NCBI GenBank assembly: GCA_963778555.1
Contig: CAVZUR010000005.1
Coordinates: 33,756-97,755 of the forward strand
From: Candidatus Moraniibacteriota bacterium
GTDB lineage: Bacteria > Patescibacteriota > Minisyncoccia > Moranbacterales > UBA1568
Reading direction: 5' to 3'
Length of the DNA stretch: 64,000 nucleotides
Shown: piece after piece, positions 47,750 through 64,000 of the stretch
Position numbering within the stretch: position 1 is the first letter of the stretch
How the letters are laid out: every line of letters begins with the position of its first letter
Position numbers and translations under genes: made by a program
Notes under the pieces: model-generated
The model's database searches: none
Told to the model about the DNA's origin: nothing
The model's input: the letters and a program-made list of their open reading frames with translations, nothing else

Positions 47750-50700
47750 AGTGACCGGCACCCTCCCAGTCGGCAATGGTGGTACCGGCGCCACCACCTT
47801 CACTGCCAATGGCGTCCTCTATGGCAACACCACCGGTGCGGTTCAAGTCACCGCCGCCGGCACGAATGGCCAACTCCTCCTCGGCGTCACCGCTGGTGCC
47901 CCGACCTTCGCCACTATGAGTAGCGATGCCTCCATCACCAATGCTGGTGTCCTGACCATCGCCGCCGATGCTGTCGCCCTCACCACCGATACCACAGGGA
48001 ACTATGTGGCCAGCCTCACCGCTGGTAACGGTATCAGTGGTACCGTCGCCAGCGAGGGAGCAACCCCGACCCTCGATATCGATCTCCTTGTCGCTGCTGA
48101 TGGCACGGGCGTCACTTCCTCCAATTCCGGTCTCGAATTCGCTGGTGCAAGCTCTGATAAGCTCGCACTCATCCAAGGCTGTTCCAATGGTCAAGGTATT
48201 TCCTGGAATGACACGACCAATCTCTGGGAATGCACCAGTTTCTCCGCCGGACTCTCCGGGAGTGGCACGACCGGTTATGCGACCTACTGGAGTGGCACCT
48301 CCTCCTTGGGGAGCGAGCAATTTCTCTCGACGGTCAGAGGTGGTACCGGTCTCGACGGTTCAGCCGCCGCCAATGGCACCCTCCTCATTGGCAATGGCAC
48401 GGGATATACGTTAGCGACCCTGACCGGTACGGCGAATGAAATTGGCATTACGAATGCCGCTGGCTCCATCACTATCGGTGTCCCGGATGACGGACTCGAC
48501 TTCACCGAATTCCAAGACACCCTCGATCTCGATGCGGCTCTCACCCTGAACCAGACCACCAATACCTGGACCCAGTCCTTCACCGGCACCACCACCACCG
48601 GCTTCGCCTACACCGCCACTTCCCTCACCACCGGCTCCGCCCTCAATGTCACTACCACCAATACCGCCACCGCCAACACCGCCCTCTCACCGGTTCAGTT
48701 CAATCTGACGAATGCTCAATCAACTACCGCCAACACCAATGGTGTCACCGGCCTCGCCGTCAACTTCACCAACAACCCGAGTGTTGCTGGTAACACGGAG
48801 TACGCGCTCCGGATCCAGAATCAGCTCACCGCGAACGTCACCGACAACGCTGTCAGTGCCCTCCTCCTCCTCGACAACGCCGACTCTACCGCGACTGGCA
48901 CCACCATCGTCACCGATGCCATCGCCATCACGAACTCAGGCGGATCGAACTTCACCAACTTCCTCAATACCCCGACCCTCGACATCAGTGCGGCGGGGGC
49001 GATCACCGGAGCGACGGGGATCACAAGCTCGGGGAACATCACGTTCTCTAGCCTCACCGCGAACTCTTTCCTCTACTCGGGTACGGGCGGTCTCCTCACC
49101 ACGACGACCGCTCCGACCAATGGCCAGCTCCTTATCGGAAGTACCGGCGTGGCTCCCGTCGCCGCGGCACTCACCCAAGGGACGGGTATCACCGTCACCA
49201 ACGGTGCAGGAAGCATCACCATCGCTTCCACCCTCGGGACGAGCGTGGACCTCACAACTGAAGTGACCGGCACCCTCCCAGTCGGCAATGGCGGTACCGG
49301 CGCGACATCGCTGACGGATCTCATCGCGTTGACGACGCATACCACGGGGAACTATGTGGCGAATGTTGCGAATGGGAACGGTATCGCGGGCGGCTCAGCG
49401 GGGAGCGAAGGGGCTTCCCTCACGCTCGCAATCGATTTACTGGATGTGGACGACAGTACGGGAGCGATTGCGAGCAACTCCGGCCTCGAATTCCAGGGCG
49501 CCGGTTCCAATGAGCTGACTCTCCTTCAAGGTTGTGCTGACACCGAGATTCTCGCTTGGGACAATACGACCAATGAATGGGAATGTGCGACAGTATCCGG
49601 CGTCGGCGGACTCTCTGGAAGCGGTACCACGAATTACGCTACCTATTGGACTGGGACCTCAACGTTAGGTGCTGAGGCTCAGCTCGATGAAACTCGCGGT
49701 GGTACCGGGATTGGAACGTATGCGACGGGTGACGTTCTCTATGCGAGTGGTGTGAATACCCTCGCCCGACTTGCGGCTGGTACTGACGGACAAGTACTGG
49801 TTCTGTCGAGTGGCGTACCGGTGTGGAGTACGATCGGAGGCGGAGGCGGAGGCGGAGTGACCGCTGACTCCCTCGACTTCACCGAATTCCAAGACACCCT
49901 CGATCTCGATGCGGCCCTCACCCTGAACCAGACCACCAATACCTGGACCCAGTCCTTCACCGGCACCACCACCACCGGCTTCGCCTACACCGCCACTTCC
50001 CTCACCACTGGCTCCGCCCTCAATGTCACTACCACCAATACCGCCACCGCCAACACCGCCCTCTCACCGGTTCAGTTCAATCTGACGAATGCTCAATCAA
50101 CTACCGCCAACACCAATGGTGTCACCGGCCTCGCCGTCAACTTCACCAACAACCCGAGTGTTGCTGGTAACACGGAGTACGCGCTCCGGATCCAGAATCA
50201 GCTCACCGCGAACGTCACCGACAACGCTGTCAGTGCCCTCCTCCTCCTCGACAACGCCGACTCTACCGCGACTGGCACCACCATCGTCACCGATGCCATC
50301 GCCATCACGAACTCAGGCGGATCGAACTTCACCAACTTCCTCAATACCCCAACCCTCGACATCAGTGCGGCGGGGGCCATCACTGGAGCGACGGGGATCA
50401 CCTCGAGTGGCTCTATCACCTTTAGTGCCTTTACCAGTAATGGTGGTCCGCTCTACACCAACGGTTCGGGTGTCATCGCTCAAACCACTGCCGGGACAGC
50501 AACCCAAGTCCTCCATGGTGGTACTGCTCCAAGCTTCTCCGCGGTCTCCCTCACCACCGATGTCTCGGGCACCCTCCCAGTCGGCAATGGCGGTACTGGC
50601 GCCACCACCTTCACTGCCAATGGCGTCCTCTATGGCAACACCACCGGTGCGGTCCAAGTCACCGCCGCTGGCACGAATGGTCAGCTCCTCCTCGGCGTCA

Positions 50701-63737: not shown

Positions 63738-64000
63738 CTATAAACATCAATTCTAACTGGGATACGCTTCTCAATACCCCGACCCTCGATATCTCTGGTG
63801 CTGGTGCGATCACCGGTGCGACGGGGATTACGAGCTCGGGGAACATCACCTTCTCCGGCCTCACCGCGAACTCTTTCCTCTACTCGGGTACGGGCGGTCT
63901 CCTCACCACGACCACCGCTCCGACCAATGGTCAGCTCCTTATCGGAAGTACCGGCGTGGCTCCAGTCGCCGCGGCGCTCACCCAAGGCACGGGCATCACC
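63721..64000 (+). CDS. giant surface protein, segment 7 (open to window edge)
   Basis: A frame shift near 63725-63735 resumes the module sequence (…LNTPTLDISGAGAITGATGITSSGNITFSGLTANSFLYSG…) to the end of the window. Confidence 0.55.

What the first reader, a model, noticed from the sequence alone, without database searches (positions are those of the whole stretch)
48493..63740. Modules are near-identical at the DNA level but assembled from interchangeable sub-module variants
Each ~1.4-kb unit has an invariant first sub-module (DSLDFTEFQDTLDLDAALTLNQTTNTW…GITSSG[N/S]ITFS). It then carries one of two alternative middle sub-modules (…SLTANSFLYSGTGGLLTTTTAPTNGQLLIG… or …AFTSNGGPLYTNGSGVIAQTTAGTATQVLHGG…). 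It ends with one of two alternative sub-modules (…ANGNGIAGGSAGSEGASLTLAIDLLDVDD…LLQGC…WEC… or …QTSVLTGLTGGSAGSEGASLTLNLDYSQALTG…TITFP…). Identity over hundreds of nt between copies implies ongoing gene conversion or very recent amplification. The cassette-like mixing suggests recombinational antigenic or structural variation.
Basis: seen in the sequence. Interest (0 to 1): 0.6.

Follow-up and report, generated by a model that had tools for sequence, protein, structure and literature searches.

The report
Giant modular surface-fibre gene, recently amplified
The repeats are real. They are the middle of one enormous gene (over 6,600 codons inside the window) for a cell-surface fibre resembling a phage tail fibre, in a tiny candidate-phylum bacterium, and the gene grew recently by copying and recombining a small set of building blocks, which is an interesting but known way for giant adhesin-like genes to evolve.

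Summary
**Observation: confirmed.** Ten A modules (555 nt) are 97-100% identical. Each is followed by b1 or b2, and all but the short tenth unit then end in a C1-type or a C2 block. All four b/C combinations occur. There are further variants (h or y-m; t1 or t2; four linkers), and units span 780-1951 nt.

**What it is:**
- One gene, from 44172 past 64000, with a signal peptide. It is split into ORFs by about 18 single-base indels.
- LeuRS and atpA in the same window are split in the same way, so the indels are probably assembly errors.
- The organism is a Candidatus Moraniibacteriota relative.
- A protein from the same contig supplies the probable C-terminus, which carries a Peptidase_S74 chaperone domain.

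**Evolution:**
- A copies: dN/dS 0.015, dS 0.068. Against the orthologue, dS is 0.8-1.0. This indicates recent lineage-specific amplification under strong purifying selection.
- The alternative blocks also occur in two orthologous genes, which have only 4 and 1 A-type starts. Those genes carry their own near-identical repeats of other blocks.
- Block junctions lie in DNA motifs shared by all contexts.

**Interpretation: partly supported.** Recent amplification and structural turnover hold. Gene-conversion tracts are not demonstrated. Nothing supports a classical antigenic-variation cassette system.

The parts
44172..64000 (+). 5' part (19.8 kb, 6609 codons) of a single giant surface-fibre gene. 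It continues beyond the window.
   Evidence: After 16 single-base corrections located by alignment to paralogous copies, the stitched translation has no stop codon. The N-terminus is 70% identical to the syntenic gene of CP064975.
44172..44297 (+). Predicted Sec signal peptide or N-terminal membrane anchor (MSAMYWYVKNKNLKPYTYLLAIALATGSLIGWGIRSQSVFA|QS).
   Evidence: Read directly from the sequence: a basic n-region, a hydrophobic core, then VFA-Q. It is conserved in L014.
44298..45026 (+). Unique N-terminal domain (not repeated).
   Evidence: It has no self-match. It is 70% identical to the orthologue, and the same domain type opens the 5509-aa protein P0122.
45027..48494 (+). Proximal fibre without A modules. 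Four C1-type blocks and one C2-t1 block are joined by r-d-e-g-y-m-n segments. These are older copies (85-95% nt identity to the distal ones).
48495..49871 (+). Unit 1: A - b1-e - g - h - n - C1 - r - u - polyG - GVTADS.
49872..51266 (+). Unit 2: A - b2 - g - y - m - n - C2 - t1 - k.
   Evidence: It is 99.2% identical to unit 5 over 1203 nt.
51267..52728 (+). Unit 3: A - b1-e - g - y - m - n - C2 - t2. This is a chimera of a unit-1-type 5' half and a unit-5-type 3' half, and the two matches overlap in the 54-nt g motif at 52022-52075.
52729..54679 (+). Unit 4: A - b1-e - (g - h - n - C1b - r - d - e) twice, ending in e2.
   Evidence: The internal 600-nt duplication is 53404-54011 = 54004-54611 (92%).
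54680..56062 (+). Unit 5: A - b2 - g - y - m - n - C2 - t2.
56063..57498 (+). Unit 6: A - b2 - g - y - m - n - C1 - r - d - e2.
57499..58881 (+). Unit 7: A - b2 - g - y - m - n - C2 - t2.
   Evidence: It is part of the 2.7-kb duplicate 54359-57079 = 57179-59904.
58882..60275 (+). Unit 8: A - b2 - g - y - m - n - C2 - t1 - k.
   Evidence: 58870-60805 matches 49860-51796 at 98.5%.
60276..61748 (+). Unit 9: A - b2 - g - y - m - n - C1 - r - d - e - k. It is the most divergent of the ten, with a cluster of differences in the m segment.
61749..62528 (+). Unit 10 (short): A - b1-e - k.
62529..64000 (+). Unit 11: a divergent A' (about 80% nt identity) with an insertion, a non-repeated stretch, then a partial A end plus b1 that runs off the window.
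46379..46405 (+). Two single-base insertions relative to paralogues (frame 0 to frame 2).
47647..47650 (+). Single-base insertion (frame 2 to frame 0).
52575..52692 (+). Cluster of five single-base indels in 118 nt, not in long homopolymer runs. It ends the 1688-aa ORF.
53405..53407 (+). Single-base insertion (frame 1 to frame 2).
57415..57415 (+). Single-base deletion (frame 2 to frame 1).
60119..60274 (+). Cluster of five single-base indels. It ends the 994-aa ORF.
63114..63207 (+). Compensating pair of frameshifts. The stretch reads ITSSGTITFSGLSTAGIVTNT in another frame.
   Evidence: The comparison sequence is P0049.
63726..63737 (+). Single-base deletion that creates the apparent stop at 63735.

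Best explanation
Positions 48493-63740 are the middle of one very large gene (44172 to beyond 64000; at least 6609 codons here, probably about 8000 or more in all). The host is a Patescibacteria (Candidatus Moraniibacteriota-like) bacterium.

**The product (inferred).** It is a Sec-exported, N-terminally anchored, Thr/Gly/Ala/Asn-rich fibre. It is built from about fifteen kinds of short segments, some of which match phage tail-fibre families. By orthology it ends in a Peptidase_S74 intramolecular-chaperone domain of the kind that folds trimeric phage tail fibres and spikes. It is therefore most likely a trimeric surface fibre used to reach or bind another cell.

**How the repeats arose.**
- Shown: the alternative sub-modules (b1/b2, C1/C2, t1/t2, h/y-m) are old paralogous segment types that are also present in orthologues.
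- Shown: they are flanked by short motifs (g = GTLPVGNGGTGAT, n = TTGNYVA, e = GAGSITIASTLGT, LDFTEFQ) whose DNA is nearly identical in every context.
- Inferred: unequal homologous recombination and segmental duplication at these shared stretches recently multiplied A-containing blocks in this lineage, in several overlapping events with different end points. This gave ten A copies with every combination of flanking variants.
- Shown: strong purifying selection keeps the A protein sequence invariant.
- Shown: related lineages have amplified other blocks of the same gene. Inferred: fibre length and composition turn over quickly between lineages.

**The frameshifts (inferred).** They are most likely consensus errors of a long-read assembly, not biology.
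For: **One gene**
- The stitched frame has no stops.
- The N-terminus is 70% identical to the syntenic 16.2-kb gene of CP064975.1, which lies just downstream of the same 278-aa fn3-like (Pur_ac_phosph_N) gene.
- ParB is 61% identical to that of JBBCGM010000002.1, which shows the same arrangement.
- P0049, from the same 228,612-bp contig, starts inside an A module. It aligns over 1033 aa (56%) with the C-terminus of the CP064975 orthologue.

**Fibre nature**
- Composition is T 19%, G 13%, A 13%, with K+R+E+H about 3%.
- The PHROG tail-fibre family phrog_31660 matches the d-e-g segments (E 1.7e-7). P0049 matches two tail-fibre PHROGs, Peptidase_S74 (E 8e-17, 61.7 bits against a cut-off of 22) and the long tail fibre distal subunit in PDB entry 6f45.

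**Recent amplification under selection**
- 24 of the 26 variable sites in A are at third codon positions. dN is 0.001, dS 0.068 and dN/dS 0.015.
- dS to the orthologous A copies is 0.78-1.0, and the two full A copies in CP064975 are 84% identical to each other.

**Old alternatives, shuffled order**
- L014 and L015 contain the same segment vocabulary. L014 has g, h, y, m, n, C1, C2, t1, t2, k, b1 and b2, with four A-type starts, two of them full. L015 has one A-type start.
- Each orthologue has its own 94-99.5% identical repeats of other blocks, while identity between genomes never exceeds 88%.

**Recombination substrates**
- The g and n motifs are near-identical in DNA across contexts. Unit 3 matches unit 1 up to 52075 and unit 5 from 52022.

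**Frameshifts as artefacts**
- LeuRS (33755-36291) is spread over at least five open frames with collinear Pfam hits, and atpA is split too.
- The indels are single bases and clustered. All but one lie outside homopolymer runs.
- The orthologous genes in the other two assemblies are also fragmented.
Against: - Adjacency of P0049 to the window could not be checked. The source contig is not in the collections that return DNA.
- The CP064975 orthologue lacks the S74 segment, so that domain is not universal in the family.
- No structure supports the fibre model directly. The AlphaFold model of A has pLDDT 81 but no DSSP secondary structure and no Foldseek match in PDB or BFVD. The C1 model is poor, with pLDDT 58.
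- Frameshifts are about seven times denser in this gene than in the rest of the window. That also fits decay of the gene or real phase variation.
- Unit order and number come from a single assembly of a repeat-rich region.
- No expression, localisation or binding data exist.
Confidence: 0.75

Rival explanations
1. It is a programmed antigenic or phase-variation system. Modules are exchanged at high frequency within a clonal population, and the frameshifts switch expression of distal parts on and off.
For: Modules are near-identical and occur in all combinations. Four-gamete failures are widespread. Frameshifts are denser here than elsewhere in the window. RecO is encoded in the window. Patescibacteria are thought to live as episymbionts that depend on surface recognition (PMC8080830).
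Against: - No silent or partial donor copies exist outside the gene in the window, and there are no inverted repeats.
- No invertase, integrase or reverse transcriptase was found in the Pfam scans.
- The indels do not sit in slippage-prone tracts. All but one lie outside homopolymer runs, and none is in a simple repeat.
- Housekeeping genes carry the same kind of indel.
- The A protein is invariant, with dN/dS 0.015. This is conservation, not diversification.
Confidence: 0.1
2. The cassette order and copy number are partly an assembly artefact. Near-identical 0.5-2.7-kb repeats were mis-joined, collapsed or expanded in a metagenomic long-read assembly, and variants were scrambled between copies by polishing.
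For: - The window carries indel errors in unique genes. It has one indel against an independent short-read contig over 4 kb.
- Indel clusters lie just upstream of unit boundaries, at 52575-52692 and 60119-60274.
- Site incompatibilities are not structured by distance.
- Short-read assemblies of relatives break at this gene.
Against: - Differences between copies are almost all synonymous (24 of 26 at third positions), so they are real alleles of real copies and not noise.
- Every junction type recurs in several units, and most recur in the independently assembled orthologues.
- The stitched frame stays open over 6609 codons.
- Two other assemblies show the same kind of intragenic near-identical repeats.
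Confidence: 0.12
3. The gene is a decaying pseudogene. The frameshifts are real and the fibre is no longer made in full.
For: About 18 frame-disrupting indels lie in 19.8 kb, roughly one per kb against about one per 7 kb upstream.
Against: - dN/dS of 0.015 among the copies means selection acted until very recently.
- Essential genes (LeuRS, atpA) are broken in the same way.
- The indels are clustered in stretches of about 120 nt with nearby substitutions, as in poorly polished consensus.
- Outside the frameshift sites there is no stop codon in 6609 codons.
Confidence: 0.08
4. It is the tail-fibre gene of an integrated or misbinned phage rather than a cellular gene.
For: PHROG tail-fibre matches and the Peptidase_S74 domain.
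Against: - The upstream 44 kb is housekeeping throughout: tRNA synthetases, the ATP synthase operon, glmS, folD, bacA and parAB. No phage genes were found.
- The position downstream of parB and the fn3-like gene is conserved in related genomes: the fn3-like gene in CP064975, parB in JBBCGM.
- The protein has an N-terminal signal peptide.
- Its length is roughly ten times that of typical tail fibres (own knowledge).
Confidence: 0.03

Closest known systems
Phage tail fibres and tailspikes with a C-terminal intramolecular chaperone (Peptidase_S74; K1F endosialidase, T5 pb1, and the long tail fibre distal subunit of PDB entry 6f45)
   Same: The probable C-terminus (P0049) has an S74 domain (E 8e-17) with the SSDERLKKNI start motif. 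Tail-fibre PHROGs match P0049 and the d-e-g segments. The sequence is Gly/Thr-rich and fibrous. The gene is a mosaic of segments joined at conserved motifs, as is known for tail-fibre genes (that last point is my own knowledge).
   Different: It is a chromosomal gene in a housekeeping neighbourhood. It has an N-terminal signal peptide or anchor. It is about ten times longer and carries ten near-identical internal modules. The orthologue in CP064975 has replaced the S74 segment. Trimer formation and self-cleavage are untested.
Giant repetitive bacterial surface adhesins whose tandem repeats are near-identical in DNA and vary in number (Embp/Ebh, SiiE, LapA/Bap, streptococcal alpha C; yeast FLO/ALS as the general model)
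   Same: It is a huge exported protein with in-frame repeats of 0.5-2.7 kb at 96-99.5% DNA identity. Repeat number and order differ between related genomes. Unequal homologous recombination is the likely mechanism. Embp is described in PMC9302970; the other examples are my own knowledge.
   Different: No Ig-like, FIVAR, RTX or other known adhesin domains were found (Pfam gave nothing significant). There are several alternative segment types rather than one repeat. The export route is a Sec-type signal rather than T1SS or LPXTG, as far as can be seen. The A domain is rare, with 233 representatives among 1.84 billion.
Giant membrane and surface proteins of CPR/Patescibacteria episymbionts (for example Vampirococcus lugosii, PMC8080830) and giant genes of predatory bacteria (bioRxiv 10.1101/2023.11.21.568195)
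   Same: The host is a small-genome candidate-phylum bacterium that devotes a very large gene to a surface structure presumed to mediate host contact. Assembly fragments at the repeats.
   Different: Those proteins carry other domains (WD40, PKD, integrin, fibronectin, HEAT, dockerin). The segment family here, with its S74 end, is not described in the papers I could find.
DDxP modular proteins (Di Nocera and De Gregorio 2020, PMC7730722)
   Same: They are large proteins (900-6200 aa) with 1-5 different module types, each present in one or many copies. That paper discusses growth of the gene by addition of modules.
   Different: No DDxP or DGDGD motifs occur at module ends here (the ends are ITADS, EVDADA and VPDDG). 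Those proteins come from T1SS-linked proteobacteria. Their proposed endonuclease and target-site-duplication mechanism is not indicated here.
Antigenic-variation cassette systems (Neisseria pilE/pilS, Borrelia vlsE, Anaplasma msp2, Treponema tprK)
   Same: They involve near-identical sequence blocks and recombination between them.
   Different: Those systems have one expression site plus silent partial donors elsewhere, and they diversify the protein. Here every block is expressed in one frame, no donors were found, and the repeated protein sequence is conserved.

Membership tests
Peptidase_S74 (intramolecular chaperone) tail-fibre/tailspike-like proteins | A C-terminal S74 domain that scores above the Pfam threshold | tested here: met
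   P0049 residues 1008-1068 score E 8.2e-17 and 61.7 bits against a cut-off of 22. They also match PDB 6f45. P0049 lies outside the window; it is assigned to this gene because it comes from the same contig and is orthologous.
Peptidase_S74 (intramolecular chaperone) tail-fibre/tailspike-like proteins | The S74 domain belongs to the same polypeptide as the repeats in the window | not testable with these tools
   The source contig could not be retrieved. The link is inferred from P0049 starting inside an A module and aligning with the C-terminus of the syntenic gene in L014.
Peptidase_S74 (intramolecular chaperone) tail-fibre/tailspike-like proteins | Homotrimeric fibre with autoproteolytic release of the chaperone | not testable with these tools
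   Only monomer prediction is available. The A model has no secondary structure by DSSP, which neither confirms nor excludes an intertwined trimer.
Repeat-containing surface adhesins with copy-number variation | In-frame intragenic repeats of high DNA identity | tested here: met
   Ten A modules are 97-100% identical. Blocks of up to 2.7 kb are 98% identical, all in one stitched frame.
Repeat-containing surface adhesins with copy-number variation | Export or surface signal | tested here: inconclusive
   An N-terminal signal-peptide-like sequence was read by eye and is conserved in the orthologue. No predictor was available. There is no recognisable wall-anchor motif.
Repeat-containing surface adhesins with copy-number variation | Repeat number and order differ between related genomes | tested here: met
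   There are 11 A modules here, against 2 full plus 2 partial in CP064975 and 1 in JBBCGM010000002. Different blocks are amplified in each. Variation within a species or population could not be tested, because there are no same-species contigs.
Antigenic variation by gene conversion from silent cassettes | An expression site plus promoterless donor cassettes outside it | tested here: not met
   Positions 45-64 kb have no match anywhere in 1-44000 on either strand. All modules lie in a single open frame. Only 64 kb could be examined.
Antigenic variation by gene conversion from silent cassettes | Diversification of the exposed protein sequence | tested here: not met
   dN/dS is 0.015. There are 2 amino-acid changes across the ten 177-aa A copies.
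Diversity-generating retroelement target | A reverse transcriptase nearby and adenine-specific template/variable repeat differences | tested here: not met
   No reverse transcriptase appears in the Pfam scans of the window's ORFs. Substitutions are mostly C/T and C/G; only 2 of 29 start from A.
DDxP modular proteins | Modules end in Asp-Asp-x-Pro with upstream DGDGD motifs | tested here: not met
   Module ends read ...ITADS...EVDADA and ...GVPDDG. The family definition comes from PMC7730722.

The most novel reading that the evidence does not exclude
Moraniibacteriota and related Patescibacteria carry, at a fixed chromosomal site next to parAB, a fibre derived from a phage tail fibre. It would be self-chaperoned and trimeric, 5,000 to more than 8,000 residues long, and would serve as their host-contact organelle. 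Its length and segment composition would be re-tuned rapidly and independently in each lineage by intragenic recombination. Three genomes have each amplified different blocks to 96-99.5% identity. On this reading the gene is a fast-evolving determinant of host range, and the A module (233 representatives among 1.84 billion) is a new fold specific to these fibres.
Probability: 0.3. Interest if true: 0.6.

Novelty: new member of a known kind. Interest (0 to 1): 0.4.

Why it matters
How Patescibacteria recognise and hold on to their hosts is mostly unknown. Their largest surface genes are usually lost or fragmented in short-read assemblies.

This locus gives a nearly complete example of such a gene, with a readable segment grammar. 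It also gives a syntenic anchor, the conserved upstream parB or fn3-like gene, for finding the gene in other genomes. It shows a link to phage tail-fibre folding domains, and quantitative evidence that module number turns over quickly while the module protein sequence is strictly conserved.

It is also a practical warning. The ORF boundaries and the apparent gene end at 63737 are products of indel errors. Annotating the pieces as separate proteins, as in the public records, hides a gene of probably 8000 or more codons.

The principle itself is well known: giant repeat-rich surface genes evolve by unequal recombination.

Tried and rejected
- **Tandem Repeats Finder** found only short 15-18-nt arrays, because its maximum period is 500. 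I used self-BLASTN instead.
- **Pfam on the repeat ORFs** gave nothing above threshold. A sequence search of PDB with the 1688-aa ORF gave 0 hits.
- **Source contig beyond the window.** Exact look-ups of P0003 and P0049 failed. The genome-contig scan found only relatives.
- **Same-species contigs for a strain comparison.** The metagenome scan gave at best 83% aa identity.
- **Recombination test.** The PHI-like test was not significant, so I do not claim gene-conversion tracts.
- **Rejected explanations:** a DGR (no reverse transcriptase, no A-bias); invertible or silent cassettes (no inverted or external copies); a prophage (housekeeping synteny); a homogeneous tandem repeat (alternative blocks are clearly present).
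- **Common motif at indel sites,** as a sign of a systematic methylation error. None was seen by eye.
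Full report

Yes. Self-BLASTN of 44-64 kb gives 119 direct self-matches and none on the opposite strand. The longest are:
- 54359-57079 = 57179-59904 (2.7 kb, 97.9%)
- 49860-51796 = 58870-60805 (1.9 kb, 98.5%)
- several 1.2-kb pairs at 98.3-99.2%

Ten copies of the first sub-module (A, 185 aa, LDFTEFQ...GITSSG[N/S]ITFS) start at 48495, 49872, 51267, 52729, 54680, 56063, 57499, 58882, 60276 and 61749. They are 97-100% identical in DNA. 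An eleventh copy at 62529 is about 80% identical.

A motif map of the stitched protein gives this grammar for a unit:
- A
- then b1-e or b2
- then g
- then h or y-m
- then n
- then either C1-type..QGC..WEC - r - d - (e or e2), or C2..TITFP - (t1 or t2)
- then a linker (k = AAAEVDAD, ITADS, or VPDDG)

b1 occurs in units 1, 3, 4 and 10, and b2 in units 2 and 5-9. C1-type ends occur in units 1, 4, 6 and 9, and C2 ends in units 2, 3, 5, 7 and 8. All four b/C combinations are present.

- Unit length ranges from 780 to 1951 nt.
- There are more than two-by-two alternatives.
- The same blocks, without A, already make up 45.0-48.5 kb at 85-95% identity.
- The interval is not a natural unit of the sequence.

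**2. One gene, not several.**

The ORFs at 44172-46436, 46487-47749, 47658-52724, 52946-57418, 57229-60213 and 60267-63737 are pieces of one reading frame. Aligning each copy to an intact paralogue places single-base indels at:
- 46379 and 46405
- about 47650
- 52575, 52595, 52625, 52632 and 52692
- 53405
- 57415
- 60119, 60134, 60163, 60272 and 60274
- about 63728

A compensating pair lies within 63114-63207. Correcting 16 of them yields 6609 codons without a stop, running off the window end.

The indels are single bases, only one lies in a homopolymer run, and they cluster in stretches of about 120 nt together with substitutions. The same damage is seen in unique essential genes:
- LeuRS (33755-36291) is spread over at least five open frames whose Pfam hits are collinear with a normal LeuRS.
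- atpA is split as well.
- An independent short-read contig (Logan ERR11593397) matches 41044-45052 at 99.975%, with one indel.

I therefore read the frameshifts as consensus errors of a long-read assembly. They are about seven times denser in the repeat gene than upstream, which would fit polishing failing in repeats. This is an inference, so real decay or phase variation is kept as a minor rival.

**3. Whose gene, and what kind of protein?**

The upstream 44 kb is a housekeeping chromosome stretch. It holds tRNA synthetases, tgt, recO, the ATP synthase operon, glmS, bacA, folD, a PilX_N-like protein, parA, parB and a 278-aa fn3/Pur_ac_phosph_N-like gene, and every gene identified is on the + strand.

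The nearest homologues are hypothetical proteins of Candidatus Moraniibacteriota MAGs (taxonomy). Two of them are syntenic:
- In CP064975.1 (1.217 Mb), the fn3-like gene is followed by a 16.2-kb gene split into 4 ORFs.
- In JBBCGM010000002.1, folD and parB are followed by a roughly 14-kb gene split into many ORFs and ending in Peptidase_S74.

The N-terminus of the window gene is 70% identical to the CP064975 gene. It consists of a signal-peptide-like sequence and a unique domain.

P0049 (1352 aa) comes from the same 228,612-bp contig as the window's ORFs. It starts inside an A module and aligns over 1033 aa (56%) with the C-terminus of the CP064975 gene. It carries Peptidase_S74 (E 8e-17) and matches two tail-fibre PHROGs and PDB 6f45. 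The d-e-g segments inside the window match a tail-fibre PHROG (E 1.7e-7).

Composition is T 19%, G 13%, A 13%, N 7%, with almost no charged residues.

From established knowledge, S74 domains are intramolecular chaperones that assemble trimeric tail fibres and spikes and are then cleaved off. The inferred product is therefore an N-terminally anchored, probably trimeric fibre of about 8000 or more residues. Its function in host contact is inferred by analogy with giant surface proteins of other CPR bacteria (PMC8080830).

Direct structural support is lacking:
- The A model has pLDDT 81 and pTM 0.66, but no DSSP secondary structure and no fold match.
- The C1 model is poor.

The A domain is rare: 233 cluster representatives among 1.84 billion proteins. 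The best hit outside this contig is an intact 5509-aa protein with eleven diverged A modules and the same kind of N-terminal domain.

**4. How did the pattern arise?**

(a) The copies are real and under selection. Of the 26 variable sites in A, 24 are third codon positions. dN is 0.001, dS is 0.068 (range 0.014-0.107) and dN/dS is 0.015. Other blocks show the same third-position bias. Sequencing noise would not respect codon position.

(b) The amplification is recent and specific to this lineage. dS to the orthologous A copies is 0.78-1.0, DNA identity is 81-82%, and the two full A copies of CP064975 are only 84% identical to each other.

(c) The alternatives are old. b1, b2, C1, C2, t1, t2, h, y-m and k all occur in the CP064975 gene. 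C1 and C2 are distant homologues of each other.

(d) The duplicated tracts overlap with different end points. This requires several events rather than one tandem expansion.

(e) The junctions lie in motifs whose DNA is nearly identical in every context. Examples are the g core GGCACCCTCCCAGTCGGCAATGG and the n motif ACCACGGGGAACTATGT. Unit 3 matches unit 1 up to 52075 and unit 5 from 52022, a 54-nt overlap in g.

(f) The process is general in the family. CP064975 has four copies of a 759-nt C1-type unit at 94-99.5% identity, and JBBCGM has 0.6-1.3-kb repeats at 97-99.4%. Cross-genome identity never exceeds 88%.

Unequal homologous recombination and segmental duplication at shared motifs is the simplest mechanism; this is an inference.

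On gene conversion: 57 of 91 and 48 of 66 pairs of informative sites fail the four-gamete test. The failures are not structured by distance (PHI-like p 0.96 and 0.39). They could also reflect polishing reads placed on the wrong copy. I therefore leave conversion as plausible but unproven.

**5. What it is not.**

- Not a silent-cassette antigenic-variation locus. There are no external or inverted copies, everything is in one frame, and the protein is conserved.
- Not a DGR target. There is no reverse transcriptase and no adenine bias.
- Not a DDxP protein.
- Not a prophage fibre, given the housekeeping synteny.

**6. Limits.**

- The source contig beyond 64000 could not be read.
- No same-species contigs were found for a strain-level comparison.
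- No reads are available to verify unit order.
- I found no paper describing this family.

**7. Verdict.**

It is not supported as an antigenic-variation cassette mechanism. The object is a new, undescribed member of a known kind: giant repeat-rich surface-fibre genes that evolve by intragenic recombination. It has a noteworthy link to phage tail fibres and a rare repeated domain. Interest is moderate (0.4).

Noticed in passing
window 33755-36291: The leucyl-tRNA synthetase gene is spread over at least five open frames. Their Pfam hits are collinear: catalytic, editing, catalytic, then anticodon-binding. An essential single-copy gene broken by frameshifts points to indel errors in the assembly.
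   Followed up: yes
window 27866-29389: The ATP synthase alpha subunit is split between frames (28107-28949 and 28793-29389). This is the same kind of damage as in LeuRS.
   Followed up: partly
window 46000-64000 versus 1-44000: GC skew switches from positive (+0.03 to +0.14) over most of the upstream housekeeping region to strongly negative (-0.09 to -0.25) across the giant gene. GC content rises to about 60%. This probably reflects the Thr/Ala/Gly codon content of the gene rather than replication.
   Followed up: no
window 1-64000: Every gene identified in the 64 kb lies on the + strand.
   Followed up: no
window 43277-44113; L014 1-155: A 278-aa protein with a weak fn3/Pur_ac_phosph_N match sits immediately upstream of the giant gene, both here and in CP064975. 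It may be a conserved partner.
   Followed up: partly
P0049 residues about 990-1095 versus P0004 residues about 1815-1930 (L014): The Peptidase_S74 segment present in this organism's C-terminus is replaced by unrelated sequence in the CP064975 orthologue. The flanking fibre, the coiled-coil region and the terminal WWLIEQKD domain are conserved. This looks like a domain swap at the fibre tip.
   Followed up: partly
L014 7669-10299; L015 6404-8016 and 9865-11214: The orthologous giant genes carry their own near-identical tandem repeats (94-99.5%) of C1-type blocks rather than of A modules. This indicates independent amplification in each lineage.
   Followed up: yes
P0122 (5509 aa, from the representative-protein search): This is an intact giant protein from another organism. 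It has eleven diverged A-like modules, the same type of N-terminal domain and a different C-terminus. It shows that a multi-A architecture can exist as one uninterrupted ORF.
   Followed up: partly
L002, L003, L008 (contigs CAYUIR010000004.1, CAYLPD010000018.1, CAYVDI010000003.1): MAGs titled 'uncultured Bdellovibrionales' encode C-terminal regions 42-65% identical to this Patescibacteria protein. Possible explanations are mislabelled bins, transfer between lineages, or a shared fibre type in predatory and episymbiotic bacteria.
   Followed up: no
L014 20038-22579: Downstream of the orthologous giant gene in CP064975 there is a TPR protein and then five consecutive T4SS-pilin-like genes. The equivalent region lies beyond the end of this window.
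   Followed up: no
window 48495-49052 (and the other A copies): Each A module holds 7 N-x-S/T sequons in 186 residues. This may simply reflect the Asn/Thr-rich composition.
   Followed up: no
window 47647-47650 and 57415: Two independent indels in different copies fall in the same sequence context (GGxTATACGxTxAGCGAC, at the d-to-e junction). Together with the indel clusters just before unit boundaries, this may mark places where the consensus was built from mixed copies.
   Followed up: partly
window 40485-40985 and 10776-11501: A PilX_N-like pseudopilin gene lies 3 kb upstream of the fibre gene. A recO gene is also present in the window, which is relevant to homologous recombination capacity.
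   Followed up: no
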